Of a stretch of DNA of 64,000 bases, positions 1 through 27,095 are shown piece by piece. A program made the position numbers and the translations under genes. The stretch spans positions 2,488-66,487 of the forward strand of contig JBKQRA010000144.1 in the NCBI GenBank assembly GCA_052144065.1, written 5' to 3'. Below the pieces are notes generated by a model. The model was not told the DNA's origin. It searched no databases and worked only from the letters and a program-made list of their open reading frames with translations. Numbering within the stretch: position 1 is the stretch's first letter; each line of letters begins with the position of its first letter. This stretch comes from Methylovirgula sp. (GTDB taxonomy: Bacteria; Pseudomonadota; Alphaproteobacteria; Rhizobiales; Beijerinckiaceae).

Positions 1-2
1 AT

Positions 3-2279
3 GAGCGCATTCCGCTCCTCTTCCTGTCGTTTACGGAAGATGCGTGGTTCATCGGCAAGAACGAAGGCGGCGTGCTCGTCGTCGGCGCCCTTTTGGCGCG
101 CCTCATCTTCTTGAGCGCGATCATTCTTGCCGGCTGGGCCGTCTTCGCGCGGCAGATTCATGCCTTTGTGTTGAGCCGGCGCCGCGGCCATATGGTGGTG
201 ATCGGCAATACGCCGACGGCGTGCGAGGTCGTCGCCCATCTCGAGACCAAAAAACGCAAATTCACCCATGTCGTCGGGACGGACACGGAGCTTGCCGGCG
301 AAAGTTCGCGGCTTGCTTTGCCCTTCAGCCTGCCGGTGATCGAAAGGCCGGCCGCCCTCGCCAGCGCCATGCGGATCATCGTCGACACGGGCGACATAGC
401 GACGAATATGGCGCTGACGCGCGCGATCCATCATGCCTTCGGCGAGCGGGCGCCGCCGGTCTCCTGCAACATTGAATCGACGCATCTCGCGGATGAGTTC
501 GGCGAATTGATTACCGGACAAAGCGACATATTGATCTATGACGAGGCGCGGCTTTCGGTGCGCGATACGCTGGCGCGCCATCCGCTCTACGCCTCGGCCG
601 ATCGGCAGGGCGCGGCGCGCGTGCATTTGCTGGTGATCGGCTTCGGCCGCTTCGGCCGCGTCTTTTTCGAAGAAGCTGTGCAGGATTCGGTCGCCGGCGC
701 TCTGGAAAAGCCTTTCGTCACCGTGATCGACCGGCAGGCCAAGGCGCGCGCGGCGGCGTTCGAGCGGGACAAGCCCCAGCACCGGATGGCGGCCGATACG
801 GTCTTCATCGAAGCGGATGTGTTGGAGACGCCGCTCGATGCGCAGGCAAGTGCGGCGCGCGCTATTCTTTATGATCGCGACGATGCGGCGCCAGTGACGG
901 CGATCGCTCTGTGTCTTCCAAGCGATGCCGAGAATGTCGCGGCGGCCATGACACTGCGCGCCATGCGGCGGCGCAGCGGCCGCTGCTTTGCACCGATTTT
1001 CATGCATATGCGCGAAGGCACGATCAACGGCACAGTGTTCATTGAAGCGGACAAGGATCGCATCGCGGATCCCTTCGATTCGGTCATCCCGCTGCGGCTC
1101 AGCCGCGAGGTATTGGCGGTCGACATCCTGGCCGAAGGCGAGCGCGACAGAATCGCCAAGCGCTTTCACGCGGCTTTCCGCGAGCTTTCGGACGATCGTC
1201 AGGCGGCGAATGTGTCCTGGCTCGCCTTGCAGGAAACCTATCGGCGTGCCGATCGCCATGCCGCAGATCACATGGCGGCAAAGCTCTGGTCGCTCGGGCT
1301 TGCGACGGAACGCCATTCGACGGAGAGCCCTTTCGCCGTCGATGCGGATTGGGAAAAGGCGCGGGTCGTGGCACCGGGAGATCATGAGCGCCTGTCGCGG
1401 CTCGAACATGAGCGCTGGATTGCCGACCGTGTGTTGGAAGGCTGGCAATTTGCGGACAAGCGCGACGATGATTCACGCCTTCACCCCGATCTCGTGCCCT
1501 TCGAGGACGTGTGCGGCAAGGATCAGGGCAAGGACCGCAAGCAAGTCGAGATACTTTATGCTCTGGCCAAGGAGGCGACGCGCGACAGAGGCAAGCGATT
1601 CATGCCGGAGCTGCGCATCGGTCTGACGGTCGCGCCGGGCATCACGCCTGCTATGGTCGAAGCCGCCGGCACAGAGATCGCGCAGCGGCTTGCAGAACCA
1701 CTTGCGGATCTTGCCGCGCATCATGTCATCACAATCATTTCGTCGCTGGCGATCGGCGGCGACTTCACTCTGGTCGAAACTGCGATCTCCAAGCTCAAGC
1801 AGCGGCTGCGGCTCAAGGAGCGGGCGGAGGGATGGAGCCTCGACAATGCAGATCTGCGGCTGCTCGCGATCGAAGGCGTTCCCTATCCCGTTCAGCTGAA
1901 GCAGGCCTTCAAGACGGCGCAGCTGCGCGAACATCAAATTCATGTCGGCCTGGAAGCGCGGCGGCATTTATTCCACCGGTTCAACCGGGTCGAAGTGGCG
2001 CGCATCGGCGTGCGGGGCCATTCCGACGATGCGATTTACCGGGACGCGGCTCTCTATGAGATGGGACGGCGCAAGGTGAGCGCCTATCTGGCGCGCCGCG
2101 CCGATGTGCTTTGCGTGCTTGGGCACAAGGGTGAAACGGGCAATGCCGATCTCCGCGAGCTGATCGGATTTTGGGCTGATCCATCGTCCATTCCCGCGGC
2201 GCTCGATTGCGGCCCCTCGCGCAGCGGCGCGTCCCGAACGAAAGCGGCGATGGAAACGCTGATCCAGATCGCCGTGTAG
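3..2279 (+). CDS. Membrane protein with TM segment, two RCK/TrkA-N-like Rossmann domains, RyR domain and C-terminal SLOG-like domain (5' truncated by window)
   Basis: The frame is open from nt 3 (ERIPLLFLSF...), so the start lies upstream of the window. Hydrophobic segment VLVVGALLARLIFLSAIILAGWAVF; Rossmann-like HMVVIG and HLLVIGFGRFG; RyR-type LSRLEHERWIADRVLEGW...RLHPDLVPFEDV. The C-terminal ISSLAIGGD...YLARRADVL resembles VSPLARGAD...FVVRHSDIL of the SLOG domain at 22682. Confidence 0.75.
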   Translation, partial: ERIPLLFLSFTEDAWFIGKNEGGVLVVGALLARLIFLSAIILAGWAVFARQIHAFVLSRRRGHMVVIGNTPTACEVVAHLETKKRKFTHVVGTDTELAGESSRLALPFSLPVIERPAALASAMRIIVDTGDIATNMALTRAIHHAFGERAPPVSCNIESTHLADEFGELITGQSDILIYDEARLSVRDTLARHPLYASADRQGAARVHLLVIGFGRFGRVFFEEAVQDSVAGALEKPFVTVIDRQAKARAAAFERDKPQHRMAADTVFIEADVLETPLDAQASAARAILYDRDDAAPVTAIALCLPSDAENVAAAMTLRAMRRRSGRCFAPIFMHMREGTINGTVFIEADKDRIADPFDSVIPLRLSREVLAVDILAEGERDRIAKRFHAAFRELSDDRQAANVSWLALQETYRRADRHAADHMAAKLWSLGLATERHSTESPFAVDADWEKARVVAPGDHERLSRLEHERWIADRVLEGWQFADKRDDDSRLHPDLVPFEDVCGKDQGKDRKQVEILYALAKEATRDRGKRFMPELRIGLTVAPGITPAMVEAAGTEIAQRLAEPLADLAAHHVITIISSLAIGGDFTLVETAISKLKQRLRLKERAEGWSLDNADLRLLAIEGVPYPVQLKQAFKTAQLREHQIHVGLEARRHLFHRFNRVEVARIGVRGHSDDAIYRDAALYEMGRRKVSAYLARRADVLCVLGHKGETGNADLRELIGFWADPSSIPAALDCGPSRSGASRTKAAMETLIQIAV

Positions 2280-2287
2280 CGCGGCGT

Positions 2288-3640
2288 TCACTTCGCCTTT
2301 GCACGCTTTTCCAGTTCGGCGATGATGTCGTCGAGCTTTTTGTCTGCCTTTTCGGCGGCGCGCCAGGCATCGCGGATCAGGCCAAGATTGCGGGCTGTCG
2401 TCTCGGCGTTCCAGCCTTCTTCGAGATGGACCAGCGCCTCGGGCAGCATTTGCTTGGCCTGCTTGAGATCGCCGGCGATGACGGCCAATTCGACGAGCGT
2501 CGCGAAATCCCAATAGTCGGCGGCGCCGCGCGCGATCTTGCGCTCCACCGCATAGCGCACGACAGGTGCGAGACGTTCGATGCGCGGATCGTCGGGATCG
2601 TTGAGCGCCATGAGGGTGAGCGCATTGATGCCTGGATAGGCATCGCGCCAATCGGCTTCAAATCCTTTGAGATAGGCGTCGATTGCCTTTTTCGCCCAGG
2701 CGGGCGCTTCAAAATCATCCGCTTTTACAGCGGCGTCCCAGCGGTCTTTGTAAACGCGGCCGAGGAGGCCGTAGGTTTCGCTCGACGCGCCGTGTTCATC
2801 GATGAGAGCGATCAAGACAGTTTCAGCCTCATGACGCTGGCCATCACGATTGAGCGCCATCGCATATTGTTCGCGCGGCATGGTCGAATGGGCGAGCACC
2901 GGGTCCATCGCCTTATAAAGTTCGATCATTTTCTTCCAGGCGCTGGCGGCGCGATAGGAAAGTAATAGATCGATGACAATGCCGGCCTGCACCACGGAAA
3001 TATCGCCGAGGTCCTTGCAGATCTGATCGAGAGCGGCGAGCCGTTCGTCACCCTTGAGGCGCCGGGCCTCGGCGAGCTTGCTCTTATAGTCGCGCGAATA
3101 GGTGACCTGCTGGCGGAAGACATCGGTCTTGCTGTGCGCGATGTCGTGCGGCTTCAGCCCGTCGATCAACTTGAAAAGGGGGCTGTCCGCTTCGCCATGC
3201 GTCTTGCAGTCATCGAGGCGCTTGGCGAGGGCCGCCCGAGCCGCCGCCGCGTCCTTGGGCCTTGCGCGCTCATCAAGACCATAGGGGAGGGTCCGCAGAT
3301 GCCCGACATCGAAGGGAAGACGGCTCGCATCGGCCGCCATCAGCACGGTCGTCTGTGGCCGCAGCGCATGCCGGACACCGAGCTCGTAATAGACATTGGG
3401 ATTGAAGATGGTGAGGTCGGCGATGGCAAATTCGCTGAGCATGAGCCGCTCATACATCGCCTTGTGGATGAGGCCGGCTTGCACCTCCTCGTCGGCGCGG
3501 ATCGGCTCGAAGCCGACATCATGGATCGCCGGTTCGATAATGTCCTTGTAAATGACGTCGAAATCGATCTCGCGGCCGGAATTGTCGGACTTTTTGCCGA
3601 ATGGCATGATGACGAAACAAATGGCACGCAGCGACAACAT
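2288..3640 (-). CDS. DUF4071 / MAP3K(ASK)-like protein: nucleoside deoxyribosyltransferase/hydrolase-like domain plus TPR-like helical domain
   Basis: CFVIMPFG...IRADEE...IADLTIFNPNVYYELGVRHA...LPFDV, then a helical region with ETYGLLGRVYKDRW, AYPGINALTL and DYWDFATLVELAV. GGAGAG RBS upstream of ATG 3640. Confidence 0.8.
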   Translation of the reverse strand: MLSLRAICFVIMPFGKKSDNSGREIDFDVIYKDIIEPAIHDVGFEPIRADEEVQAGLIHKAMYERLMLSEFAIADLTIFNPNVYYELGVRHALRPQTTVLMAADASRLPFDVGHLRTLPYGLDERARPKDAAAARAALAKRLDDCKTHGEADSPLFKLIDGLKPHDIAHSKTDVFRQQVTYSRDYKSKLAEARRLKGDERLAALDQICKDLGDISVVQAGIVIDLLLSYRAASAWKKMIELYKAMDPVLAHSTMPREQYAMALNRDGQRHEAETVLIALIDEHGASSETYGLLGRVYKDRWDAAVKADDFEAPAWAKKAIDAYLKGFEADWRDAYPGINALTLMALNDPDDPRIERLAPVVRYAVERKIARGAADYWDFATLVELAVIAGDLKQAKQMLPEALVHLEEGWNAETTARNLGLIRDAWRAAEKADKKLDDIIAELEKRAKAK

Positions 3641-3908
3641 CAGATCTCTCCGGCATTCCGTGATAATCTAGGCGTGGCAGCCGAGCTTTGGAATATGAAA
3701 AGAGCCCCGATTGGCGGCTCGGAAATCGGCGGCTTTCGCGGCGGAGAGAATAAGACGGACACGTTCCAGGAAATCCGCGCCGTCCGCGCCGTTTTAATCG
3801 GCTGGACAGGCAAGGCTCGATCGTTCTAATCCTTGCGGGCTTGCAAGCGCCGACGAAGCAATGCCGATCGCTTTGCGATGGCTTCCTTTGGACGGCGCGG
3901 GGACGATC

Positions 3909-5078
3909 ATGAGCGATGATGCGCTGACAGAAGTTGTTCTGCCGTTGCACCGCGCCGCGCCTGAGGGTTCAGCCCCTGAACAGGCGCTCGTCGCGCGCAT
4001 CATCAATGGCGATGGCAGAGTTGTCGCGGAATTTCTGCGGGCAGCAATTCCGCCGCTTCTGTCGGCGATCGCGAAGCTGGAACCGGATGCTGACGAGCAG
4101 CAGGCGGCACTGCTTTATGTTCTCGGCAAGCTCAAAGAGGATGGCTATCGACGGCTTCAGGCTTTTGATGGCCGCGCCAGCCTCGCGTCCTTTCTGCCGC
4201 TTGTCGCGCGCGAACTCTTGGCATTGCGCGCGGCCGAACGGCTGTTCGCCGATCCGCAGCAGGGCTGGACGCGCTTCAAGCGCATTTTCGATCGCGATAT
4301 CCAGACCCGCATCGCGCGGCGTTTTCCCTATGATGCGGGAACTGGGCGCTGGGAGGATATCTATCAGGATATCTGCATCAAGCTCGTCGAAGGCGATTGC
4401 CGGCGGCTGCGCGATTATGGCGGCAAGGGCAGCTTCATCGGCTTCGTGCTAAAGGTCGTCAAAAACCTTCTGAACGATGAGCTGCGCCGCGACGTTCCGC
4501 GTCGGCGCTTGCCGGCCTCGATCCTGCGCATGCCGGAGCTCGAGCAGGAAATCTACAAGGTGGTCGCCTGGGACGGCTGCGCTGCAGAAGCGGCGCGGGT
4601 GAACGATGTTTTGCGCGGAAGGCTTGCGGCCGATCCGCCGTCGGACGTGATCGGGGCGGCCTTGGTGCGCGTCACCGAAGCGATGACGACGCTTAAGACC
4701 GATGCGCATAAAAAGCCGAAAGTGGTCTCGCTCGACGCGGTCGCAAGCGCGATAGAAGGCCAGCTTCCGTCATCGGCGATGGCATCGAACCCTGAGGAAG
4801 AGCTGATGCTCGCCGAAGAGGAGCGCCAGCGCGAGGCCTTGATCGCAAGGATCCGCGCCAGCGCCGCCGAGCTTCCCGCGGAGGAGCAGCTTTATCTTCA
4901 ACTCGTTTTCGGGTCGACGGAGGGCATGCCACGCCGCAATGTGGCGCAGATCATGGGCTGTTCGGTCACCGACGTCGATCGGCTCAAGCAGAAGACGCAA
5001 CGCTGGTTCGCCAGCCTGCGTCGGGAGTTGCAAGATCACGAAGCGCGTCTCTCGCTCACAAAGTCAGATCCATCATGA
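3909..5078 (+). CDS. Sigma-70 family (ECF-like) sigma factor with tandem duplicated region 2
   Basis: Two similar blocks, KLKEDGYRRLQAFDGRASLASFL and EDIYQDICIKLVEGDCRRLRDYGGKGSFIGFV; region-3-like VVSLD; region-4 HTH ELPAEEQLYLQLVF...RRNVAQIMGCSVTDV. The ORF track starts at 3861; ATG 3909 is preferred. Confidence 0.8.
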   Translation: MSDDALTEVVLPLHRAAPEGSAPEQALVARIINGDGRVVAEFLRAAIPPLLSAIAKLEPDADEQQAALLYVLGKLKEDGYRRLQAFDGRASLASFLPLVARELLALRAAERLFADPQQGWTRFKRIFDRDIQTRIARRFPYDAGTGRWEDIYQDICIKLVEGDCRRLRDYGGKGSFIGFVLKVVKNLLNDELRRDVPRRRLPASILRMPELEQEIYKVVAWDGCAAEAARVNDVLRGRLAADPPSDVIGAALVRVTEAMTTLKTDAHKKPKVVSLDAVASAIEGQLPSSAMASNPEEELMLAEEERQREALIARIRASAAELPAEEQLYLQLVFGSTEGMPRRNVAQIMGCSVTDVDRLKQKTQRWFASLRRELQDHEARLSLTKSDPS

Positions 5079-5938
5079 CGGAAAGCTTGCATATGGCGAT
5101 TGTTGAGCTGCTCGAAGAGCTGGAATTGGAGCATGACCGCTCCGATTCCGCTGCCTTCGCGACGCTGCGCGCCCGTCTCATGGCCGATTTTTCCGACGCG
5201 CTTGCAAAGGAGGGTGATCTCGACAGCGATGGTGAGCGCCTGCTCAACGCGTTTGCCGCGCATCTTGAAGGCTGCGCGACGGAGGCGCAGCGCCAGCATT
5301 TGATCGCGGTTCTCGCGCATCGACCCGAAACGCTGGCGGCGCTTGAATCGGCGGCTGCTTTTCTGAGTGATCTCAAGCCGCATGAGGCGTCGGTGTCCGA
5401 TGCACTCTTCCGCGACGCCATGGCGGCTTTTGCACCTCAGCAAGCGTTTGTGCCCGCGGCCGTTGCTGCCGCCGTGCCGCTGCCGATCGCAGCGCGCCGG
5501 CGGGTCAATTGGCAGGTCTGGGGCGCTATGGCGGCAACGATCCTCGTCGGCGTCATCGGCGGCACGCGTCTGTGGCAGATCAATCGCACAACGTCCGACG
5601 CGACGCCGCCCAACGTCGCTGTGCATGAGCAAGCGCCGAGCACCGCGCCGGCGCCGCCACCGAACAAGGCGATTGCGCCTTTGCAGACGGCACCTGCCGT
5701 AGGGAGCGCGCCTGCGCCCGAGGCAGCGGCGCAAGGCGCATCTTCTGACTGCGCTTCGCCAACGCCGCCGACTGGTGACGCGGCGTCGAGCGATCATACG
5801 CCCCAAAAGCGCAGCCCAGCGCAATCGCAAATGCCATGTGCGCCGCACGCGCCGGCAGCGGCCGCAGCACTCCCGCATGCGCGGCAACCGCCAGTGCCGG
5901 TTGCACCCGAACCTCCCCCAAATGGGTCTCCCTACTAA
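5075..5938 (+). CDS. Putative membrane anti-sigma factor with Pro/Ala-rich extracytoplasmic tail
   Basis: ATGA overlap with the sigma gene; helical N-domain (LLNAFAAHLEG...RQHLIAVLAHRPE); single TM WQVWGAMAATILVGVIGG; low-complexity P/A tail. Confidence 0.65.
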   Translation: MTESLHMAIVELLEELELEHDRSDSAAFATLRARLMADFSDALAKEGDLDSDGERLLNAFAAHLEGCATEAQRQHLIAVLAHRPETLAALESAAAFLSDLKPHEASVSDALFRDAMAAFAPQQAFVPAAVAAAVPLPIAARRRVNWQVWGAMAATILVGVIGGTRLWQINRTTSDATPPNVAVHEQAPSTAPAPPPNKAIAPLQTAPAVGSAPAPEAAAQGASSDCASPTPPTGDAASSDHTPQKRSPAQSQMPCAPHAPAAAAALPHARQPPVPVAPEPPPNGSPY

Positions 5939-6037
5939 GACGAGCGTCCTTTAGAATTGCGTCAGGCGCGGCGTGCTGGGCCTCTGGCCTTTGAATTTGC
6001 GGTGGTTGATCCGGCGCCCTTTCTGTAAGATCGGGCC

Positions 6038-10132: not shown

Positions 10133-10195
10133 ACCATATTATTTATTTCGCCGCACCGGCGGATCTCAGCGCGGAGACCGAGAAAGGCCTTTGCT

Positions 10196-16774: not shown

Positions 16775-16861
16775 AAAGGCCACTGTAACGCGAGATAAGA
16801 CGCAGCTCACAATTCATTGCGTGAGTCACCGAATTCACGGATGGATATGAAGGAGCTTCGG

Positions 16862-17659: not shown

Positions 17660-17686
17660 TCGGCAAATCGACCGGAGCAGAGCACT

Positions 17687-17716
17687 AAAAAGGAAGGCGA
17701 AATGCCTTCCTTTTTT
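17687..17716. terminator. Bidirectional rho-independent terminator
   Basis: AAAAAGGAAGGC-GAAAT-GCCTTCCTTTTTT between convergent genes ending at 17659 and 17737. Confidence 0.85.
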
Positions 17717-17736
17717 ATTGAGCGCTTCGCCAGCTC

Positions 17737-20052: not shown

Positions 20053-21611
20053 AGCTCGCCAACAAATTTCTGAATCAAATCGTCTGTTGCGCCGTTGCGA
20101 TAATCAATTGGATCGAAACTTGTCGCCATGCCGAGTTCGTCGGGATGGGCGCCGGGAGCCAGAAGCAATTTCTTGTAACGCGGAGGCTTGTCGCGCCGCG
20201 CCGCAAGCTTGATGTAACGGCGCAACTGCGCTCGTACCCAGTGGGGCGGCGCTTCGCCGAACACGAGGAGAAGACCGTCGCAATTGATCCAATTCTCGTC
20301 GATCTCTTCGTCCTTTTGCTTGGCGTTGCCTTTGTAGCTGGCCATAAAGGCATTGCGCCGGCGGGACTGAAAAGCCTTCAGCAGCGATTTTGCGAGATCC
20401 TGATCATCGTCATAGGCGTTGATGAAGAAGGCGCTCTCGTCGACCGGCGCTTCGGCGTTCGCCTGCTCGGCGGGCGCTTCCGCCAACCGGCGCTTGGTTT
20501 CTTCCTCGCGCCGGCGGGCCTCTTCTTCCCGGCGCTTTGCGGCCGCAGCCTCCGCCGCCTGCCGTTCGAAGGTGCCTTTGATTTCCTTTAGAAATTCTTG
20601 CAGGCCCATGACCCGCACGTCGGGGCCGCTCAGCAATTGCTTGTCGTAGTGGGTCACGGCTTCGGGATTGATGTCGGGCCGATGCCATTGCAGCGTCGGC
20701 ACGCCACGGCGTTTGGCGGCGGCATATTGGAAGACGGAGTAGCTTTGCGAGGGCTCGGCCTCGCTTTGCTTGAGATCGCTCGGCCGTTTGGAAGGCACCT
20801 GGCTCAGCAGCTGGACGAAGAGATCGGCCTTTTCGAGATCGGCCCGCACCGCCTTGGCGAAATCATTGCCGCCACCCGGATAGTCGCCATCGGGAAGGAC
20901 GCGGGCGCCATATTGTTCCAGATAGGTGCGGACCTGCAACGCTTCGTCATAGAGATCATCGGTCGCTTGCGCGAGCAAGACCGTCTTGCCGCTCAGCGGC
21001 AACGATGCGGCCTTCGCCGAGGCGGGCGCCGCACCGGTTGAGGCGCGCGCCTTGAGTTCGCGCAAGAGGCTGACGCAATTCTCAGCGAGTTCCGCGATGC
21101 TCTTGCCATAGCTGTCGCTGTTGCTGGGCTTCAGCGTGTAATCGATCTTGGTCTCCAGATCCTTGTAATAGAAGCGGGTGCGCTTGATGCCCATGCCTTT
21201 GGGACCGGCAAGCAGGCCGCTGATCTGCGGATTTTCCTCGAAGGGCAGAATTTCGATCGCGACAATCCGATTGATGCTGGATAACGCACTGTCGCCTTCC
21301 CGCACGGCATCGTTGAAAGCGGTCAGCTCCTTGATCGTCCAGTCGCGCGCGACATAGGCGCGCGAAAGAACCGGGATGAAGATCGCCGATCCTTTGGCAT
21401 TTTCGACCAGCGAAGCCAGTTCTTGATGCGCCTCGAGATTCGAATTGTCGAAGAAGAGGGAGACATCGTCGCTGCCGAGGCGCTTGCGCAGATGGCTTTC
21501 GAAATTGTTGCGGAATTCGCTAACCCATCTGACTTTTTGCTCATCCGGCTCATTGTCGAGATGCGTATAGCTGATGAAAATGTCGTGCAAGAATCCTGGA
21601 ACAAAAGTCAT
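20037..21611 (-). CDS. Protein with three TIR-like domains
   Basis: Domain 1 DIFISYTHLD...SRAYVARDWTIKEL; domain 2 TVLLAQAT...ADLFVQLLS...YSVFQY; domain 3 AFFINAYDDD...CDGLLLVFGEAPPHWVRAQL; overlaps the start of the nSTAND1 gene by 16 nt. Confidence 0.78.
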   Translation of the reverse strand: MTFVPGFLHDIFISYTHLDNEPDEQKVRWVSEFRNNFESHLRKRLGSDDVSLFFDNSNLEAHQELASLVENAKGSAIFIPVLSRAYVARDWTIKELTAFNDAVREGDSALSSINRIVAIEILPFEENPQISGLLAGPKGMGIKRTRFYYKDLETKIDYTLKPSNSDSYGKSIAELAENCVSLLRELKARASTGAAPASAKAASLPLSGKTVLLAQATDDLYDEALQVRTYLEQYGARVLPDGDYPGGGNDFAKAVRADLEKADLFVQLLSQVPSKRPSDLKQSEAEPSQSYSVFQYAAAKRRGVPTLQWHRPDINPEAVTHYDKQLLSGPDVRVMGLQEFLKEIKGTFERQAAEAAAAKRREEEARRREEETKRRLAEAPAEQANAEAPVDESAFFINAYDDDQDLAKSLLKAFQSRRRNAFMASYKGNAKQKDEEIDENWINCDGLLLVFGEAPPHWVRAQLRRYIKLAARRDKPPRYKKLLLAPGAHPDELGMATSFDPIDYRNGATDDLIQKFVGELCLTR

Positions 21612-21966
21612 GGCGCAGCAATAACTCCCGCCCTGTCGAAGCAGCTCGGCTCCGAAGTCTCATACGCATTATGCACGCCTTGGCTGAGCCGAGGCAAGGG
21701 GAACGCCGCGCTTCGGGCCGGAACATTGCGGCGACCGGTAGCAGTTTGCGTGAGTCTTGCGGTCACAATCGTTGGACCGAGCTTCGGATCGAGGCGGCAA
21801 GGCTCGTGGTGGAGGCGCTGCCGCTTTCGTCTGCTTGTCACAGATTGATTGCAAGGCTGAGCCAACGTTGCGCCAGGACCGGAAATAGGCTACCTCCTAG
21901 ACCGTATCTGTGCATGCGCATGCACGCACAGATACGTCGTTTCGTTTCGTAAAATGGTTGCCCACA

Positions 21967-22497
21967 ATGCGCATTTTCAGCCCGGGAATTTCAAGCCTCA
22001 TTTTGGCCGGCGGCATTGTGATCGCCGGCTCGGATCTGGGAACGGCGCAGCCGGCACCCCAGAATACGCCGGCGCCGGCCACCCAGACGGACATCGTCAC
22101 CTCGATCACGCCGGAAGGCCTCGCCGCGATCATGCGCGATGCCGGCTATAAGGCCGATGTCTACGAATACGGCACGACAACCAAACATAAAGCCATCGCC
22201 ACGGCGATGGAGGGCTATAAAGTCCGGGTCTATTTTTATAGTTGCGATGCCCAGAACAAGTGCGGTTCGCTCAACTTCGAAACCTCATTTACGAAGAGCC
22301 CGAATTTTACCCTCGCGCTGGCGAATAAATGGAACACGGATCACCGCTATACGAAGCTCTATATTGATCCGGCCGATCAATCGCTCACATTCGACTTCGA
22401 CATCTTCATTTATGGTGGTGTCACCAATGCGACGATCAAAGACGCCGTGACTCTCTACGACAGCACGCTCGGCGATCTGGCGAAGTTCCTGCCCTGA
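21967..22497 (+). CDS. Secreted YbjN-domain protein
   Basis: Signal-like N-terminus, Pro/Gln linker, then PEGLAAIMRDAGY...FYSCD...CGSLNF...ANKWNTDHRYTKLYID...GGVT. Confidence 0.75.
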   Translation: MRIFSPGISSLILAGGIVIAGSDLGTAQPAPQNTPAPATQTDIVTSITPEGLAAIMRDAGYKADVYEYGTTTKHKAIATAMEGYKVRVYFYSCDAQNKCGSLNFETSFTKSPNFTLALANKWNTDHRYTKLYIDPADQSLTFDFDIFIYGGVTNATIKDAVTLYDSTLGDLAKFLP

Positions 22498-22681
22498 GCC
22501 TTGGTTGGGACGGCACCCCAAATCGGCGCCGACCCCGTGGCCTCCTGCGTCCAGATATTTCCATGCTCTGCCTGACCCCGATCCGCGAGCGCGCGCGACC
22601 GGACGCGCCACTCTCCTCCCCAATTTGGGGTAGACTGCGATGCGTCGTGAGTGGGCGGCGCGTGACGGACGGAGGGTGCCA

Positions 22682-24646
22682 GTGACGGAAGGGGCGTCGT
22701 CGCATTTCCCACAGCTTGCATTGCGCATCGGCATTACCGGCGCGCGCAGCCTCGATGCGGCCCGCATCGACGATCTGCGGAAAAAGCTGCGCGACGTGCT
22801 GGGTTCGGTTAAAGCCGACATGCGGCGGCTCGCCGAAGACAAAGACGTGCGCGCGCATTACGCCGGCGTGGAGACGGGCGAGCCCTGGTTGCGGTTCGTT
22901 TCGCCTTTGGCGCGCGGAGCCGACCGTCTCGCGGCCGAGACCGCCCTCGATCTTGGCTATGATCTCTATGTCCCGATGCCTTTCGACCGGGCGGAATATG
23001 AGAAGGATTTCCGGGGCGCCCAAGATCCGCATGAGCCGCCGCTGTCGGCGGCCGAGGATCTCGCGCAATTCACAACGCTGCTGCAGCGCGCGGGGCAATC
23101 CGGCCAAGCTTGGCTCACCCTCGACGGCGGTCGGGAGGAAGAAAACCGCGCCTATGAAGCTGTCGGTCGCTTCGTCGTGCGCCACAGCGACATTCTGATT
23201 GCCATTTGGGATGGCAAGCCGAGCAACGGCCGCGGCGGCACAGCGGAGATCGTCGAATATGCGCTGACAAGCGGCGTGCCGGTCTGGTGGATCCATGCCA
23301 CCGAGGCAAGAGACCCTGTCTGGCTCACCAGCCAGCTGGATTTGCGCGATCCGCGCGCGCCGACGATTGAGCCCCTTGCGGCTGTGCGGCGCTATATCGA
23401 TCGGCAAATTCCGCCGCCGCCGCCCGTGTCGCGCGAACGCGAGGGGCTGGTTGAAGCCGTTGCGCGCTTCGGTCAGCGGCGAAATGTGTCGCCACTTGAT
23501 GTCTATTTCGGCGAAGATGGGAAGCCGCCGGCGTTTTGGGCCAGCGCCTATTCCGCGATGATGCGTTGGGCAGTGCCGCCGACTCCCCCGCCGTCGTCCC
23601 CCATTTCATCGCTTCCCAAACCGTCATCGCCGACTGGCGCCGCCGACACTTATTGGCGCGAGCGTTATACGCCGGCCGATCTGTGCGCCGGCCAATATGC
23701 GAGCCGGTATCGTTCGGCCTATGTCTGGCTGTTTGCTTTTGCGACGGCGACGCTCGTGTTCGGCGCGCTCGCCGCGGTGGCGCATGGCGTGAAGCCCTTG
23801 GTCATTGCGTCCATCGCGCTTGAATTGGCGATGCTGCTGTTGATCTGCGTGGTGGTGAATTCGGCCATCCGTGGCGATTGGCATGAGCGCTTTGTCGAAT
23901 ATCGTCTGCTCGCAGAATTATGTCGCAAGCAGCAGGTCTTGGCATTGCTCGGCAGCGGCGTATCGCTGGGCGCCGTCGGCCGCATGATCCTGCGCGAAAT
24001 CGAAATCGCAGCAAAACAGAAAGATAAAGGCGTCCACCCGGTGGGGCACGTGCCGGATCGCGCCGCCTGGGTTGCCTGGCTCTTCACCGCTTGGGAACGC
24101 GCCGCGCCGATGCCGACGGGCGAGCTCGCTGCCTCATTGCATACGGTCGTCCATGAGCAGGTGATGCAAGGATTGATCGACGAGCAATTGCATTATCATC
24201 GCGAGCGTGGGGCGCGGTCGGTGCATGCCGATAAGAAATTCTCGAAATTCGGTCAGTGGTGCTTCATCGCGGTGATTGTCTGCGTGCTGTGCAAATTCGC
24301 CGTGGTAGGGTTCATTCAACCGCTGGATGAGGATAAAGCCTCTTTCGTCCGCGAGGCGGGTGAAATCGGCGTTCTGTTTCTGACATGGCTTGCGATCGTG
24401 CTCCCGGCCGTCTCGGCCGCTTTTTTCGGCATTCGCAGCTATGCGGAACTGCAGCTCCTCGCCGAGCAGTCGCGGCATATGGTCGATGAGCTTGAAAGCG
24501 CCAAGCGGCGGATCGAGCGCATTAATTTGAAGCGCCCGCTGTCAGCTGAAGATATCGGCGCCGAAACCCATGGCGTTGCGACCTTGATGCTGCAGGATCT
24601 CGACGGATGGTCGCGCTTGTTCAAAGTCAAAGCGATCGAACCTTAG
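22682..24646 (+). CDS. SLOG-like domain fused to two SLATT (DUF4231-like) 2TM modules
   Basis: IGITGAR, VSPLARGADRLAAE, VPMPF, YEAVGRFVVRHSDILIAIWDG...GRGGTAEIVEYA...GVPVWWI; SLATT-like TM pairs ending WHERFVEYRLLAE and AELQLLAEQSRHM; GGAGG RBS before GTG 22682. Confidence 0.8.
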   Translation: MTEGASSHFPQLALRIGITGARSLDAARIDDLRKKLRDVLGSVKADMRRLAEDKDVRAHYAGVETGEPWLRFVSPLARGADRLAAETALDLGYDLYVPMPFDRAEYEKDFRGAQDPHEPPLSAAEDLAQFTTLLQRAGQSGQAWLTLDGGREEENRAYEAVGRFVVRHSDILIAIWDGKPSNGRGGTAEIVEYALTSGVPVWWIHATEARDPVWLTSQLDLRDPRAPTIEPLAAVRRYIDRQIPPPPPVSREREGLVEAVARFGQRRNVSPLDVYFGEDGKPPAFWASAYSAMMRWAVPPTPPPSSPISSLPKPSSPTGAADTYWRERYTPADLCAGQYASRYRSAYVWLFAFATATLVFGALAAVAHGVKPLVIASIALELAMLLLICVVVNSAIRGDWHERFVEYRLLAELCRKQQVLALLGSGVSLGAVGRMILREIEIAAKQKDKGVHPVGHVPDRAAWVAWLFTAWERAAPMPTGELAASLHTVVHEQVMQGLIDEQLHYHRERGARSVHADKKFSKFGQWCFIAVIVCVLCKFAVVGFIQPLDEDKASFVREAGEIGVLFLTWLAIVLPAVSAAFFGIRSYAELQLLAEQSRHMVDELESAKRRIERINLKRPLSAEDIGAETHGVATLMLQDLDGWSRLFKVKAIEP

Positions 24647-24652
24647 CGCTTC

Positions 24653-25135
24653 CTAAGGCAACACTTTCCAATGATCCGCGAAGAAACCGTGTGCATCGAG
24701 CGGCTCGCTCTTGCCAAAGGTTTTGGCCTTGCGTCCGACGCAGCGCCACTCATAAGGTGTGTCATGGCCCGTCACGACCATCGGGATGAATTTCGAATTC
24801 GGATTTTTGCTGCACCATTGATCCGCAGCCGCCATGCTTCGCCGCTGGTCAGCCTTGCCGCAGGAGAGATTGGCGCCGACGTAACATAGAAGGACCTTGC
24901 CGCCAGCGCAGCGAAAATAGGCTGCTCCGGCGGCTTCTTGAGCGTCGACATCGAAGAGCTGTTTGATTGCTGCGGCAAGTGAGGCCGGCGGTGTCCGGGT
25001 CTCGTCGTCATTGCCGACACGGGCACAATATTGGCGCGGATCCTCATCCGCGCGCGCGGCTGTTACGGCGAGCGGCGCGCTCAATGCCTGCGGCAACGAC
25101 AGAAGCAGCAGAAGTCTGATGAGATGCGGGCGCAT
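24653..25135 (-). CDS. Secreted hypothetical protein with six Cys
   Basis: GGAGGAG RBS before ATG 25135; signal peptide ending AARA-DE; six Cys in the mature part. Confidence 0.7.
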   Translation of the reverse strand: MRPHLIRLLLLLSLPQALSAPLAVTAARADEDPRQYCARVGNDDETRTPPASLAAAIKQLFDVDAQEAAGAAYFRCAGGKVLLCYVGANLSCGKADQRRSMAAADQWCSKNPNSKFIPMVVTGHDTPYEWRCVGRKAKTFGKSEPLDAHGFFADHWKVLP

Positions 25136-25161
25136 ATGCTCCTCCGTCTTCAGGCGATTTT

Positions 25162-25377
25162 CTATAGCGGCTGCGGCAAGGTCGGATGGATCGGCGGCAG
25201 CGCGCAGCCGCAATGCGGCGCCGGCCTAGCCCACAGAAGTCCGATAATACTGACGATCGCGAGCGACAAAAGCGCGACGGCGATCAGCCACCGGTGCCGT
25301 CGCGGCGGCTGCGCTTTCGGGATCGTCACCCAGGAGACACGCGGCGCGCTTTCGCGCAATTCCATCGGGTGGGTCAT
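25162..25377 (-). CDS. Small single-TM hypothetical protein
   Basis: RRHRWLIAVALLSLAIVSIIGLLWA TM followed by HCGC and a Pro-rich tail; start uncertain. Confidence 0.35.
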   Translation of the reverse strand: MTHPMELRESAPRVSWVTIPKAQPPRRHRWLIAVALLSLAIVSIIGLLWARPAPHCGCALPPIHPTLPQPL

Positions 25378-25622
25378 CACAAATTCTGCGGAGGGGAGGG
25401 TTGCGGACGAACGCATTTTGTCTTTCCTCGCATTGCGGGCCGCTCGGGCCAAACGCAGCTGAAGACGGACGCGATCCGTTTTCTCGAGGCCGATTTTTAA
25501 CGCCGGCGCCCGCGAACGCATGTCCTTTTTCGAAAACCCGCCGCCTGTCCGTCTCCTGCAAACGATGCCGCGCCGCCTGCCTTTGGAGGCGGCTGCGCCA
25601 GAGATGTTTTCAGGAGGTCTTT

Positions 25623-26705
25623 ATGGGCGAGCCCTGGTTACGGTCGACCGCAATTCTTTGGACGGCGCTTTTGTCGTTCTTTTCGCCAAACTCCGGCGCG
25701 AGCGCCGAAGGCTATAAAATTTCGCAGCCGCTGACGCATGACAATTTGACCCTCTATCTCGTGCATGGACGATCGGCACCGGGTCCCGTGCCGATGACCT
25801 TGGAAGAGGCGCTGACGCGTCAAAGCGTGCGGGTCGCCGAGATCGGCAGCGTCAATGCGCTGGCCGTCGAGAATTTTGGCGACCGCGAGGTCTTCATCCA
25901 GTCGGGCGATATCGTCACCGGCGGCAAGCAGGATCGCGTCTTCGTGTCGAGCCTGGTGCTGCCGCCGCATTCCGGCCGGCAGATACTCGCCGTTTTCTGC
26001 GTCGAGCCCGGCCGCTGGACCGCGCGGCAAGGCACGCAGGACGGGCATTTCGTGGCAGCCGCCGCGGCGATGCCGTCGCCGCAGGCACGCACCATTCTCT
26101 ATGAAGCGGTTGCGGCACCGCCCGTCACGGATTCGCCAGTCCCCGATGCGCCGTCCGGCGCCAGCCTGCAGCAGCGCATGTGGGCGCAGACCGCCGAGGT
26201 ACAAAGCAAGCTCAGCCGGCAATTGCAGGGAAGCGCCGCGGATCCCGCGTCGCCGACAAGTCTCGCCCTGTCGCTCGATCTCGAGAAGCTGAAGGTCGCG
26301 CAAAAATCCTTCGTCGATGCGCTCGCCCCGCATGGCCTGCGCGACAGCGACGTCGTCGGCTATGTGATCGCGGTGAACGGCAAAGTGAGCAAGGCCGAGA
26401 TCTATGCCTCGAACGCGCTGTTCCGGGCGATGTGGATGAAGCAATTGCGGGCCGGCGCGGCCGAGGCCATTCAGGCCAAGACGTCCGACAAGACGTCCGA
26501 CAAGACTTCGGAAAAGGCAGCGCCGCCGTCCTCCGCCGCTGTCGAGAAGCTCCTGGATCTCGGCAGCTTCGGCAAGCCGATCGAAAAGCCTCTGAGCGTC
26601 TCCGGAACTGAGATCATCCGCGAAGCGCCGAGAATGGTCTTTGTCGAAACGCGCCGCGGCGACGGCAGCTTCGTGCTGCGCAACTATCTTGCAAGGGCGT
26701 CGTGA
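25623..26705 (+). CDS. Secreted ARPP-1 (DUF6569)-like protein
   Basis: CAGGAGGT RBS; signal peptide; NLTLYLVHG, LEEAL...V.EIGSVNALAVEN...FIQSGDIVTGGKQDRV, VFCVEPGRW, QQRMWAQ, VGYVIAVNG...AEIYASNALF. Family recognised from memory. Confidence 0.6.
   Translation: MGEPWLRSTAILWTALLSFFSPNSGASAEGYKISQPLTHDNLTLYLVHGRSAPGPVPMTLEEALTRQSVRVAEIGSVNALAVENFGDREVFIQSGDIVTGGKQDRVFVSSLVLPPHSGRQILAVFCVEPGRWTARQGTQDGHFVAAAAAMPSPQARTILYEAVAAPPVTDSPVPDAPSGASLQQRMWAQTAEVQSKLSRQLQGSAADPASPTSLALSLDLEKLKVAQKSFVDALAPHGLRDSDVVGYVIAVNGKVSKAEIYASNALFRAMWMKQLRAGAAEAIQAKTSDKTSDKTSEKAAPPSSAAVEKLLDLGSFGKPIEKPLSVSGTEIIREAPRMVFVETRRGDGSFVLRNYLARAS
26478..26513 (+). repeat. 12-bp in-frame tandem repeat x3 (KTSD KTSD KTSE)
   Basis: AAGACGTCCGAC AAGACGTCCGAC AAGACTTCGGAA. 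Confidence 0.8.
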
Positions 26706-26731
26706 TCGACGCTGCATATTGAGTGAAGCTG

Positions 26732-26769
26732 GCGGCGGTTTTCCTTCCTTGATTGAAGGAAGCCGCCGC
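26732..26769 (+). terminator. Long stem-loop between the 25623 and 26790 genes
   Basis: GCGGCGG-TT-TTCCTTC loop GAAGGAA-G-CCGCCGC; no U-tract, and it sits just before the next RBS. Confidence 0.4.
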
Positions 26770-26789
26770 GATGATGAGAGGAGGTATCA

Positions 26790-27095
26790 TTGACCGAGAT
26801 CAAGCCGCAGCGGATTGTCCTTCAATGTCCAGGCTGCTTACGGCCGTCCGACAGCATCAAGCGTTTCACGATGCCGGATCTCTTCGTCTTTTTGTGGATT
26901 TTCGCCTGGTGGCGGCGCGCGACCTATAGCCTCTGTCCGAGCTGCATGCGCAAGAAGATCGCGGAGAAGATGGCAATCAACATCATCCCAGCCAATCTCA
27001 TATGGCCGTTCCTGGCGGTCTTCTGGCTGGTGCTGCTCGCGCGCACTTTTCCGAAAGGCCACAGCAAGAGCCTGTTGAAACTGATTTCGCATTGA
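26790..27095 (+). CDS. Small membrane protein with CxxC...CxxC (zinc-ribbon-like)
   Basis: GAGGAGG RBS, TTG start; CPGC and CPSC flank a hydrophobic stretch; C-terminal TM. Confidence 0.65.
   Translation: MTEIKPQRIVLQCPGCLRPSDSIKRFTMPDLFVFLWIFAWWRRATYSLCPSCMRKKIAEKMAINIIPANLIWPFLAVFWLVLLARTFPKGHSKSLLKLISH

What the first reader, a model, noticed from the sequence alone, without database searches (positions are those of the whole stretch)
1..27095. Candidate multi-component envelope-spanning immune signalosome island (STAND/TIR + kinase + protease + sigma + SLOG effectors)
Seen: about 18 adjacent genes, nearly all carrying conflict or signalling domains. These include two nSTAND1 NTPases, four TIR-like domains, a DUF4071 hydrolase-TPR, two SLOG-like domains fused to membrane modules, a Ser/Thr kinase, two FHA-proteases, sigma/anti-sigma, YbjN and ARPP-1. 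Strikingly, both STANDs, both proteases and the anti-sigma are single-pass proteins whose C-terminal module is predicted outside the cytoplasm, and several partners have signal peptides. Known: TIR, STAND, SLOG and SLATT domains are core parts of bacterial immunity (Thoeris, Avs, CBASS effectors). Inference: this is one system that senses an extracytoplasmic or envelope threat (phage adsorption, contact weapons, predators). It would signal both by nucleotide messenger to membrane effectors and transcriptionally via kinase, protease and sigma. I do not recognise this combination as a named system.
Basis: partly seen in the sequence, partly recalled or inferred. Interest (0 to 1): 0.92.

Follow-up and report, generated by a model that had tools for sequence, protein, structure and literature searches.

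The report
Modular TIR/STAND membrane-sensor defence island
This 27-kb stretch of a soil alphaproteobacterium is a real cluster of immune-type genes, but it is a mosaic of at least three separable modules rather than one 18-gene machine; its most interesting feature is that its TIR and STAND (NLR-like) proteins are anchored in the membrane with their sensor domains predicted to face outward.

Summary
Window 1-27095 carries about 18 genes, and nearly all the claimed domains are present: two nSTAND1 NTPases, TIR domains, DUF4071/TPR-S, an active-looking Ser/Thr kinase, two FHA-TM-trypsin proteases, an ECF-type sigma factor, YbjN, ARPP-1 and a SLOG-SLATT membrane protein. No PADLOC system matches the block.

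The 'one system' reading is not supported. In related genomes the genes come and go as modules:
- TPR-kinase + FHA-TM-protease is the conserved core. A TIR gene lies within 10 kb in 12 of 16 such loci, against 0 of 11 loci with a protease homolog but no kinase.
- TIR(524 aa) followed by nSTAND1 is an autonomous pair, found in about 40 of 80 loci across many phyla without the other genes.
- SLOG-SLATT has a TIR gene within 6 kb in 24 of 56 loci. It forms a SLOG-SLATT/TIR/nSTAND1 operon in Caballeronia, Eremiobacterota and other lineages.
- DUF4071 recurs beside SLOG-SLATT.
- ARPP-1 and its small neighbours show no linkage outside close relatives.

The predicted membrane topology is real and general: 59 of 74 nSTAND1 relatives have a hydrophobic helix right behind the NTPase module.

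Closest known: Thoeris-type TIR signalling (the putative 'SLOG and 4TM' type, and types VII/VIII) and Avs-like STANDs. I rate it a new variant of a known kind; no component family found here has an experimentally shown function.

The parts
1..2279 (+). g01: channel-like 2TM + tandem RCK (TrkA_N) + RyR repeat + C-terminal Rossmann-like domain. The window cuts off its 5' end; full length is 807 aa.
   Evidence: Pfam RyR E 4e-8 and TrkA_N E 6e-4. Full-length P0241. AlphaFold2 pLDDT 80; Foldseek GsuK/TrkA E 6e-9, RyR repeat E 4e-5. SLOG not shown.
2288..3640 (-). g02: DUF4071. N-terminal TIR/deoxyribohydrolase-like domain + TPR-S; a ThsI-like architecture.
   Evidence: Pfam MAP3K_TRAF_bd and TPR-S. 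PADLOC TIR effector E 2e-9. ASK1 regulatory region E 2e-22 and weak DNPH1 hits. Lies at or near SLOG-SLATT in L118, L121, L127, L149, L154. Lies beside SLATT + TIR + nSTAND1 in L066.
3861..5078 (+). g03: divergent ECF-type sigma-70 family factor with an N-terminal extension. Start may be 3909.
   Evidence: TIGR02937 52.8 bits, above cut-off. Region 4 resembles FliA, E 6e-4. Sigma70_r2 E 1e-4.
5075..5938 (+). g04: anti-sigma-like single-pass protein with a Pro/Ala-rich C-terminus. Assigned by position and topology only.
   Evidence: Overlaps the g03 stop. TM at about residues 138-160 with an RRR N-flank. No family hit. Co-occurs with g03 in L005, L006, L007, L011.
6038..10132 (+). g05: TIR - nSTAND1 - TM (residues about 689-709, nt about 8102-8164) - TPR array.
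   Evidence: TM conserved in position in homologs. Catalytic Glu and Walker A/B present. Present in L006-L008, replaced by TIR-TM-TPR in L005, L009, L012, L018, L028.
10196..12088 (+). g06: MalT-like TPR + Ser/Thr protein kinase, cytoplasmic.
   Evidence: Pkinase E 2e-30. Motifs intact. Beside the FHA-protease in 16 loci, at identities down to about 33%.
12184..14031 (+). g07: FHA - TM - trypsin-like serine protease - beta-rich C-terminal domain.
   Evidence: Catalytic triad invariant in the family.
14077..15915 (+). g08: paralog of g07 (54% identity).
   Evidence: One to three copies in relatives.
16075..16728 (+). g09: secreted DUF1080/3-keto-disaccharide-hydrolase-like (lectin-fold) protein.
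   Evidence: Pfam E 1e-6. Signal peptide. Follows the FHA-protease in 8 loci outside the window, including L010 and L013, which lack the kinase.
16817..17659 (+). g10: secreted Ser/Ala-rich low-complexity protein. The gene call is ambiguous with 16909-17544(-).
   Evidence: Signal peptide. N-terminal 60 aa conserved in L006 and L007. A public gene caller chose the minus-strand ORF.
17737..20052 (-). g11: nSTAND1 - TM (residues 501-519, nt 18496-18552) - coiled coil - Cys-less rhodanese-like domain.
   Evidence: (resembles PQQ_CXXCW).
20037..21611 (-). g12: soluble TIR protein (524 aa). Overlaps the g11 start by 16 nt.
   Evidence: TIR_2 E 2e-14. A g12-then-g11 same-strand pair occurs in about 40 of 80 loci.
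21910..22497 (+). g13: secreted YbjN-like protein, divergent from g12.
   Evidence: Pfam E 1e-13. Signal or anchor sequence. Present beside all 6 rhodanese-type nSTAND1 loci that have enough flank.
22640..24646 (+). g14: SLOG (YpsA-like) + 4-TM SLATT/DUF4231-like membrane effector.
   Evidence: TIR neighbour in 24 of 56 loci. Family has 6400 cluster representatives.
24653..27095 (.). g15 (24653-25213 -, secreted 186 aa), g16 (25401-26705 +, secreted ARPP-1), g17 (26790-27095 +, 101 aa, TM). Neighbours with no shown link to the modules.
   Evidence: g16 accompanies g14 only in close relatives L112 and L113.

Best explanation
This is a chromosomal conflict (defence-type) island of a Methylovirgula-like Beijerinckiaceae bacterium. 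It is assembled from separable modules that recombine across bacteria and probably talk to each other through NAD-derived nucleotides.

**Module B (g12-g11, g13, g14)**
- A membrane-anchored STAND NTPase has its NTPase in the cytoplasm, one TM helix, and a Cys-less rhodanese-like domain outside. It senses an extracytoplasmic cue, possibly together with the secreted YbjN-like protein.
- It oligomerises and activates the soluble TIR protein encoded just upstream.
- The TIR product either depletes NAD+ or acts as a messenger. As a messenger it would bind the SLOG domain of g14, whose 4-TM SLATT part then damages the membrane.

**Module A (g03-g10)**
- TIR-nSTAND1-TM-TPR is a second outward-facing receptor.
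- It is coupled to a cytoplasmic TPR-kinase and to two FHA-TM-proteases. Their FHA domains read phospho-threonine inside the cell, and their protease domains act outside.
- A plausible protease target is the anti-sigma-like g04, which would release the ECF-type sigma g03.

**Module C (g02, g01)**
- These are extra nucleotide-responsive effectors: a DrHyd/TIR-like + TPR-S protein, and an RCK/RyR channel-like protein.

**Shown versus inferred**
- Shown: domain content, motif integrity, conserved TM helices, and which genes co-occur.
- Inferred: every step of signal flow, the trigger, and an immune role.
For: - Domains and motifs.
- No named PADLOC system.
- Presence/absence of modules among close relatives.
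- Kinase + FHA-protease is kept out to about 30-47% identity in Hyphomicrobiales. A TIR gene lies within 10 kb in 12 of 16 kinase+protease loci, against 0 of 11 protease-only loci. Fisher p = 2e-4, or p = 0.02 after collapsing relatives.
- A TIR524-then-nSTAND1 pair occurs in about 40 of 80 loci across phyla without the other genes.
- SLOG-SLATT has a TIR gene within 6 kb in 24 of 56 loci.
- SLOG-SLATT/TIR/nSTAND1 operons occur in L156, L158, L160 and on a Caballeronia plasmid.
- SLOG-SLATT lies directly beside the TIR-STAND/kinase/protease genes in L008, and beside kinase/protease in L114.
- DUF4071 lies beside SLOG-SLATT in 5 loci, and beside SLATT + TIR + nSTAND1 in L066.
- The TM helix is conserved in 59 of 74 nSTAND1 relatives and in TIR-TM-TPR/FGE-sulfatase proteins.
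- The SLOG fold of g14.
- Published TIR-to-SLATT and TIR-to-(CMP hydrolase + TPR) cADPR signalling, and a putative 'SLOG and 4TM' effector type: bioRxiv 10.64898/2025.12.03.692087.
Against: - No experiment exists on any of these families. The two 'SLOG and 4TM' operons tested in E. coli gave no defence.
- Topology rests on hydrophobicity and charge only.
- Most TIR524-nSTAND1 pairs outside this clade lack a g14-type SLOG-SLATT (0 of about 37). In those, the TIR may be a plain NADase effector rather than a signal generator.
- The kinase/protease/sigma link is positional. Sigma and anti-sigma-like genes accompany the kinase only in the Methylovirgula-like clade.
- Distant FHA-protease homologs sit in lasso-peptide and RiPP clusters, so the protease family is not intrinsically immune.
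- Synteny among close relatives may simply be inherited.
Confidence: 0.55

Rival explanations
1. One integrated envelope-spanning 'signalosome': all of the roughly 18 genes work as a single system.
For: - The genes are contiguous, and largely syntenic in four related genomes.
- Cross-links recur between families in distant lineages: L008, L056, L066, L114.
Against: - Modules are individually missing in close relatives: g05 in L005 and L011; g11-g13 in L005; g02 in L011; g16 in L111 and L123.
- Each module occurs alone across phyla.
- Genes lie on both strands in at least six transcription units.
- ARPP-1, g15 and g17 are never linked outside the clade.
Confidence: 0.12
2. The island is not antiviral. 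It would be a cell-envelope signalling or regulated cell-death circuit used for envelope stress, kin or competitor sensing, or social behaviour: an ECF sigma regulon controlled by kinase, FHA-protease and periplasmic sensors. The TIR/STAND parts would serve self-directed death or dormancy.
For: - Sigma, anti-sigma-like protein, kinase and periplasmic protease are classic envelope-signalling parts.
- Many components are secreted or periplasmic.
- nSTAND1 systems have been tied to multicellular and aggregating bacteria (PMC8195603, PMC7159879).
- No phage or mobile-element genes and no tRNA flank the island.
Against: - TIR + SLOG/SLATT + STAND is the signature of anti-phage systems.
- Module gain and loss is typical of defence islands.
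- One SLOG-SLATT/TIR/nSTAND1 operon sits on a mobilizable plasmid.
Confidence: 0.2
3. Chance neighbourhood: unrelated genes that happen to lie together, with no functional relation between any modules.
For: - Most g14 loci and most g12-g11 loci lack the other window genes.
- Close-relative synteny can be inherited.
Against: - The TIR association with kinase+protease is statistically strong.
- SLOG-SLATT has a TIR neighbour in 24 of 56 loci.
- The same family combinations recur in Beta- and Gammaproteobacteria, Eremiobacterota, Acidobacteriota and Leptospirae.
Confidence: 0.08

Closest known systems
Thoeris-type TIR signalling: putative 'SLOG and 4TM' type, type VII (TIR + SLATT ThsH, cADPR) and type VIII (TIR + 'CMP hydrolase and TPR' ThsI). 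Source: bioRxiv 10.64898/2025.12.03.692087.
   Same: - TIR genes with a catalytic Glu lie beside a SLOG + 4-TM SLATT-like protein (g12/g14).
- A deoxyribohydrolase-like + TPR protein (g02) recurs next to SLOG-SLATT and TIR.
- That preprint notes rare operons carrying both effector types.
   Different: - Here a STAND NTPase sits between sensing and the TIR.
- The TIR/STAND proteins are membrane-anchored, with predicted outward-facing sensors.
- g14 is not directly in the TIR operon; it is divergent, with YbjN between them.
- Homology of g02 to ThsI and of g14 to the tested 'SLOG and 4TM' proteins was not tested, because no sequences were available.
- The two tested 'SLOG and 4TM' operons did not defend E. 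coli.
Avs/AVAST and bacterial NLR-like STAND defence proteins
   Same: g05 has the tripartite layout: an N-terminal effector (TIR), a central STAND NTPase and a C-terminal TPR sensor.
   Different: - The NTPase belongs to the nSTAND1 clade. No Avs model in PADLOC matched at E <= 1e-3.
- A TM helix separates the NTPase from the sensor, so the sensor is predicted to be periplasmic. Characterised Avs proteins sense phage proteins in the cytoplasm (general knowledge).
nSTAND1 and related computationally defined conflict systems (PMC8195603, PMC7159879; SLOG treated in PMC9503650; SLATT known to me from earlier work by the same group)
   Same: The same domain vocabulary appears: nSTAND1, TIR, trypsin, S/T kinase, FHA, SLOG, SLATT, TPR-S and ARPP. 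The same logic of variable sensors and effectors applies.
   Different: - No effector-associated adaptor domains or vWA-MoxR components were detected.
- I did not find the combination of ECF sigma/anti-sigma-like protein + TPR-kinase + FHA-TM-protease + DUF1080 in the papers I read.
ECF sigma factors controlled by Ser/Thr kinases or by regulated proteolysis of a single-pass anti-sigma (general knowledge, not tested here)
   Same: An ECF-type sigma, a downstream single-pass partner, an adjacent Ser/Thr kinase and periplasmic serine proteases.
   Different: - The sigma is atypically long (389-405 aa).
- The partner has no anti-sigma family signature.
- The proteases carry cytoplasmic FHA domains.
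- The linkage is seen only in one clade.
Animal Toll-like receptors (analogy of topology only)
   Same: Repeat-rich ectodomain, single TM helix and cytoplasmic TIR. This applies to the TIR-TM-TPR and TIR-TM-FGE-sulfatase proteins of related loci, and to g05 with an inserted NTPase.
   Different: - The polarity is opposite: the TIR is N-terminal.
- The repeats are TPR, not LRR.
- The bacterial TIR probably acts as an enzyme.
- No homology of the ectodomains is implied.

Membership tests
Thoeris (TIR-signalling defence) | A TIR-domain protein with the catalytic glutamate | tested here: met
   g12 TIR_2 E 2e-14 with WTIKE (Glu95). g05 TIR_2 E 4e-15 with WCLKE (Glu78)..
Thoeris (TIR-signalling defence) | An effector with a nucleotide-sensing domain encoded next to the TIR gene, with the adjacency conserved | tested here: met
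   g14 has a SLOG fold and lies 1 kb from g12. A TIR gene lies within 6 kb of g14 homologs in 24 of 56 loci. Same-strand operons occur in L156, L158, L160 and L168. In the window the two genes are divergent, not co-operonic.
Thoeris (TIR-signalling defence) | The TIR makes a signalling nucleotide on infection, and that nucleotide activates the effector; phage protection results | not testable with these tools
   Needs LC-MS of infected cells and plaque assays.
Thoeris type VIII effector ThsI | Sequence homology to the validated ThsI ('CMP hydrolase and TPR') | not tested
- g02 has the same described architecture. Its N-terminus gives weak hits to DNPH1-type N-hydrolases (E about 0.5-1) and carries TPR-S.
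Avs/AVAST | A match to an Avs STAND NTPase family model | tested here: not met
   PADLOC gave no Avs hit for g05 or g11 at E <= 1e-3. Pfam assigns both to nSTAND1.
Avs/AVAST | Tripartite layout: effector, STAND NTPase, repeat sensor | tested here: met
   g05 is TIR-nSTAND1-TPR, but with a TM helix before the TPR array.
CBASS | A CD-NTase/SMODS cyclase | tested here: not met
   No SMODS or CD-NTase hit appeared in any Pfam or PADLOC scan of the 18 gene products.
nSTAND1 conflict systems | An nSTAND1 NTPase with intact Walker A/B, an effector and a repeat sensor | tested here: met
SLATT membrane effectors | A match to a SLATT family model above its cut-off | tested here: inconclusive
   - g14: NCBIfam SLATT_1 E 6e-4, 19.7 bits, below the 41-bit cut-off.
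- The N-terminal-domain relative in L158 (31% identity over residues 23-206) hits DUF4231 and, more weakly, SLATT_3. The L008 SLOG protein hits DUF4231 only.
- Source annotations call full-length homologs SLATT or DUF4231.
ECF sigma / anti-sigma pair | The sigma matches an ECF model | tested here: met
   The sigma matches TIGR02937 at 52.8 bits, above the 42.9-bit cut-off.
ECF sigma / anti-sigma pair | The partner matches an anti-sigma family | tested here: not met
   The partner g04 has no hit in Pfam or NCBIfam.

The most novel reading that the evidence does not exclude
A large, unstudied class of bacterial immune receptors may sense threats outside the cytoplasm. These are single-pass TIR-TM-repeat and nSTAND1-TM-repeat proteins, with a topology analogous to Toll-like receptors and to a membrane-bound NLR. 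They would detect phage adsorption, contact weapons or predators at the envelope, before or without cytoplasmic entry. They would relay the signal inward to TIR nucleotide signalling and SLOG-SLATT pores. In this lineage they would also relay it to a kinase, FHA-protease and ECF sigma transcriptional arm.
Probability: 0.25. Interest if true: 0.85.

Novelty: new variant of a known kind. Interest (0 to 1): 0.62.

Why it matters
Characterised bacterial STAND and TIR defences detect phage components inside the cell. If these membrane-anchored versions really place their TPR, WD40, rhodanese-like or FGE-sulfatase-type sensors in the periplasm, bacterial innate immunity would include surface surveillance, as in animal Toll-like receptors.

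The families are large. The SLOG-SLATT family alone has about 6400 clusters at 50% identity. The helix behind nSTAND1 occurs from Actinomycetota to Planctomycetota.

The window offers a compact natural test bed. One organism holds two such receptors, two candidate nucleotide-responsive membrane effectors and a kinase/protease/sigma branch. Close relatives that naturally lack single modules can serve as controls.

Tried and rejected
- Exact-protein look-up with the TTG start of g08 failed. The ATG start at 14077 worked.
- A single-protein scan of representative genomes for g08 found nothing. A 19-sequence alignment was too diverse to seed a scan. A 9-sequence alignment worked.
- Pfam at a lax threshold gave nothing for the g14 N-terminus. 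A profile search of g14 against PDB sequences gave only noise. The fold search was needed.
- BLASTP and an HMM built here could not show that the g01 C-terminus is a SLOG (E 0.04 and 0.17). The whole-chain fold search was dominated by the RCK and RyR domains, so the claim stays open.
- TIR sequences of published 'SLOG and 4TM', type III and type VIII Thoeris systems gave only generic TIR similarity to g05 and g12. No subtype could be assigned.
- The promoter/terminator scan was uninformative. No tRNA genes were found.
- I considered a RiPP or lasso-peptide role for the FHA-proteases, because distant homologs sit in such clusters. I rejected it for this locus: no precursor or maturase genes are present, and the kinase-linked clade associates with TIR instead.
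- I considered ARPP-1 and YbjN as parts of an ADP-ribosyl-glycohydrolase-centred system (PMC9503650). I rejected it: no ARG, Macro or NADAR hit appeared in any scan of the 18 gene products, and both proteins carry signal peptides.

Full report
**Source and gene map**

The window (about 61% G+C) matches a 90-kb metagenomic contig. The closest relatives of its proteins are Methylovirgula and other Beijerinckiaceae MAGs.

Between positions 1 and 27095 I count 17-18 genes:
- g01: RyR/TrkA_N protein. The window cuts off its start; full length is 807 aa.
- g02: DUF4071/TPR-S, on the minus strand.
- g03: sigma factor. g04: single-pass partner.
- g05: TIR-nSTAND1-TPR.
- g06: TPR-kinase.
- g07 and g08: FHA-TM-trypsin paralogs.
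- g09: secreted DUF1080-like protein. g10: secreted Ser/Ala-rich protein.
- g11: nSTAND1-TM-rhodanese-like, and g12: TIR, an overlapping minus-strand pair.
- g13: secreted YbjN.
- g14: SLOG + 4TM.
- g15: secreted 186-aa protein. g16: secreted ARPP-1. g17: 101-aa TM protein.

From about 28 kb onward the genes are ordinary: PPDK-like, TonB receptor, RND efflux, fixG/fixI, ccoN. No tRNA or mobile-element gene is present. Upstream of the window lie a GerE regulator, DUF1003 and two highly repetitive 'TTAQ' proteins.

**Check of the observation**

- The sigma factor passes the curated cut-off of TIGR02937.
- Catalytic and nucleotide-binding motifs are intact in both TIRs, both STANDs, the kinase and both proteases.
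- The rhodanese-like domain of g11 has no cysteine at all, so it cannot be a sulfurtransferase. It is better read as a binding module. It resembles the periplasmic PQQ_CXXCW family.
- g14 has no Pfam hit. A confident AlphaFold2 model (pLDDT 88) places its N-terminal domain with YpsA and DprA, the SLOG fold. The C-terminal half is four long membrane helices with weak SLATT/DUF4231 signals in g14 and its relatives.
- The second claimed SLOG (g01) is not demonstrated. The model shows a 2TM channel-like N-terminus, tandem RCK domains like GsuK and TrkA, a RyR repeat, and a five-stranded Rossmann-like C-terminal domain of unassigned family.
- g04 is 'anti-sigma' by position and topology only.

**Topology**

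g04, g05, g07, g08 and g11 each have one hydrophobic helix with an Arg/Lys-rich N-flank.
- The helix of g05 is weakly hydrophobic in the window protein. It is conserved in position and more hydrophobic in homologs whose sequence there has diverged.
- The same is true, on a much larger scale, for relatives of g11. In 59 of 74 evaluable proteins, a strongly hydrophobic 19-mer follows the NTPase module. These come from Alpha-, Beta- and Gammaproteobacteria, Planctomycetota, Cyanobacteria, Bacteroidota, Chloroflexota, Actinomycetota and others.
- TIR-TM-TPR and TIR-TM-FGE-sulfatase proteins show the same design.

The NTPase, TIR and FHA domains need ATP, NAD+ or phosphoproteins, so they must be cytoplasmic. 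The sensor or protease parts are therefore predicted to lie outside. This is inference from hydrophobicity and charge, not from a dedicated predictor.

**Is it one system?**

I anchored genome searches on three genes and scored every fetched locus with all window proteins and with HMMs built here for TIR, SLOG and SLATT.

(a) Kinase + FHA-protease
- This pair is the evolutionarily stable core. The two genes are adjacent in 16 loci, with protein identities down to about 30-47% (Methyloceanibacter, other Hyphomicrobiales and an unclassified proteobacterium).
- DUF1080 follows the protease in most Beijerinckiaceae.
- A TIR gene lies within 10 kb in 12 of these 16 loci, usually as TIR-(nSTAND1)-TM-TPR. 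It lies near none of the 11 loci that have a protease homolog but no kinase (Fisher p = 2e-4; p = 0.02 after collapsing relatives).
- Sigma and anti-sigma-like genes accompany the pair only in the Methylovirgula-like clade.
- g05 is absent from its slot in L005 and L011.

(b) TIR(g12) followed by nSTAND1(g11)
- This same-strand pair occurs in about 40 of 80 loci from many phyla, with none of the other window genes. It is therefore an autonomous two-gene unit.
- Its C-terminal sensor swaps between rhodanese-like, TPR and WD40 modules.
- The secreted YbjN gene accompanies all six rhodanese-type loci that have enough flank.

(c) The g14 family
- It is very large: 6400 cluster representatives.
- It usually lacks the other window genes, but 24 of 56 loci have a TIR gene within 6 kb.
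- SLOG-SLATT, TIR (about 507 aa) and nSTAND1 form a same-strand operon in Eremiobacterota, Vulcanimicrobiota and Acidiferrales MAGs, and on a mobilizable Caballeronia plasmid.
- In Rhodoblastus (L008), a SLOG-DUF4231 gene sits divergently beside TIR-nSTAND1-TM-TPR, kinase, FHA-protease and DUF1080.
- In L114, g14 is immediately followed by the kinase and the FHA-protease, with a TIR-FGE-sulfatase gene and a caspase gene upstream.

(d) DUF4071
- It lies next to or near SLOG-SLATT in five loci.
- In a Leptonemataceae genome it lies beside a SLATT_1 gene, divergent from a TIR-nSTAND1 pair.

(e) ARPP-1, g15 and g17
- These never travel with the others outside close relatives.

The picture is a network of recombining modules, not an obligate block and not a random pile-up.

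**Mechanism (inferred)**

The best-supported flow has four parts.
- An outward-facing sensor on a membrane-anchored STAND or TIR protein detects a cue.
- Cytoplasmic oligomerisation activates the TIR.
- The TIR's NAD-derived product either kills by depletion or gates SLOG-SLATT (g14). It may also act on the TPR-S protein (g02) and the RCK/RyR channel-like protein (g01).
- In the kinase branch, the cytoplasmic TPR-kinase would create phospho-threonine marks read by the FHA domains of g07 and g08. This couples an inside event to periplasmic proteolysis. The Pro/Ala-rich outer tail of g04 is an obvious candidate substrate, and cleaving it would free the sigma factor g03.

None of these steps has been tested.

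**Comparison with what is known**

- PADLOC recognises only domains, such as kinase models of PD-T4-6 and MADS and generic TIR models, and no system.
- The nearest experimental precedent is the expanded Thoeris family. Type VII is TIR + SLATT and type VIII is TIR + 'CMP hydrolase and TPR'; both respond to canonical cADPR. Rare operons carry both effectors.
- That survey also lists an untested-to-negative putative type, 'SLOG and 4TM' (bioRxiv 10.64898/2025.12.03.692087).
- g05 has the Avs-like tripartite layout, but belongs to the nSTAND1 clade and is interrupted by a TM helix.
- The domain families were defined computationally in the conflict-system papers (PMC8195603, PMC7159879, PMC9503650).
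- A periplasmic location for a STAND-linked sensor has been predicted once before, for DGR targets (10.1101/2023.09.22.558884).
- I found no description of the ECF sigma + TPR-kinase + FHA-TM-protease + DUF1080 combination. I also found no description of the general TM hallmark of this nSTAND1 group in the papers I could search. Absence from that library is not proof of novelty.

**Verdict**

- The single-system interpretation is too strong.
- The nucleotide-messenger and outside-sensing ideas are reasonable and now have comparative support.
- I rate it a new variant of known kinds (Thoeris-like TIR signalling and STAND receptors) sitting in a modular island. Interest is moderate to high, because of the membrane-receptor topology and the untested kinase/protease/sigma branch.

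Noticed in passing
L031-L110 (relatives of window 17737-20052): In 59 of 74 evaluable nSTAND1 proteins from many phyla, a strongly hydrophobic helix sits right behind the NTPase module, before TPR, WD40 or other repeats. Membrane anchoring looks like a hallmark of this STAND group.
   Followed up: partly
L168 (NZ_CP049320.1, Caballeronia sp. SBC2 plasmid pSBC2-4) 7058-14458: An annotated operon on a mobilizable plasmid: DUF4231 protein (g14 homolog, 28%), then a TIR protein, then a 'WD40 repeat' protein that is in fact nSTAND1-TM-WD40 (31% to g11).
   Followed up: yes
L141-L147, L114, L121, L118, L132, L149: Single-pass TIR-TM-TPR or TIR-TM-FGE-sulfatase proteins have a TM at about residue 190 with an Arg-rich N-flank. 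They lie directly beside SLOG(-SLATT) genes in Lysobacterales, Oceanospirillales and several Alphaproteobacteria. The topology is like a Toll-like receptor with reversed polarity.
   Followed up: partly
L027 5364-11791; L029 10001-14906: Distant FHA-less or FHA-bearing homologs of the protease (30-34% identity) sit at the end of a lasso-peptide cluster (Asn synthase-like, PqqD/transglutaminase, ABC exporter). Others sit beside an ABC exporter within a radical-SAM RiPP cluster.
   Followed up: no
window 1-2279 and L167 10001-12424: The window cuts off the start of g01. The full 807-aa protein begins 145 nt upstream, and its N-terminus looks like a 2TM pore-loop channel with a non-canonical filter (SFTEDAWFIG).
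   Followed up: partly
L167 3764-8528 (about 1.6-6.4 kb upstream of the window start): Two adjacent proteins of 816 and 762 aa have no Pfam hit and are made almost entirely of 'ALTTAQV.NLTTDE.VALGTAQVQ'-type repeats. They are 72-80% identical to each other. They may be a surface repeat protein pair or a collapsed or duplicated assembly.
   Followed up: no
window 17737-18250 (C-terminal domain of g11): The rhodanese-like domain has no cysteine. The usual active-site loop position reads FFSRDSKSWE. It resembles the periplasmic PQQ-associated CXXCW protein family but lacks that motif.
   Followed up: partly
window 16817-17659 (+) versus 16909-17544 (-): Two overlapping ORFs on opposite strands. 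A public gene caller chose the minus-strand 211-aa ORF. However, the plus-strand ORF has a signal peptide, and its first 60 residues are conserved in L006 and L007.
   Followed up: partly
L114 13900-15570; L124 10001-11836; L016 4965-6799: Homologs of the FHA-protease (L114, L016) and of SLOG-SLATT (L124) are split over two or three reading frames. These are possible pseudogenes or assembly errors, which would fit rapid turnover.
   Followed up: no
L018, L019 and L028 (for example L028 7200-10004 and 13788-16543): In the more distant kinase/FHA-protease loci, the partners are a cNMP-binding + Crp HTH + TPR-S protein (934 aa) and one to five tandem secreted trypsins (five in L018, three called in L028, one in L019). 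These take the place of the sigma, anti-sigma-like and DUF1080 genes.
   Followed up: partly
window 46800-55900: A cbb3 oxidase and fixGHI-type gene set (CcoN, FixG, P-type ATPase), plus an RND efflux pump at 39.9-44.5 kb. This is ordinary chromosomal context, showing that the island is not on a plasmid or prophage.
   Followed up: no
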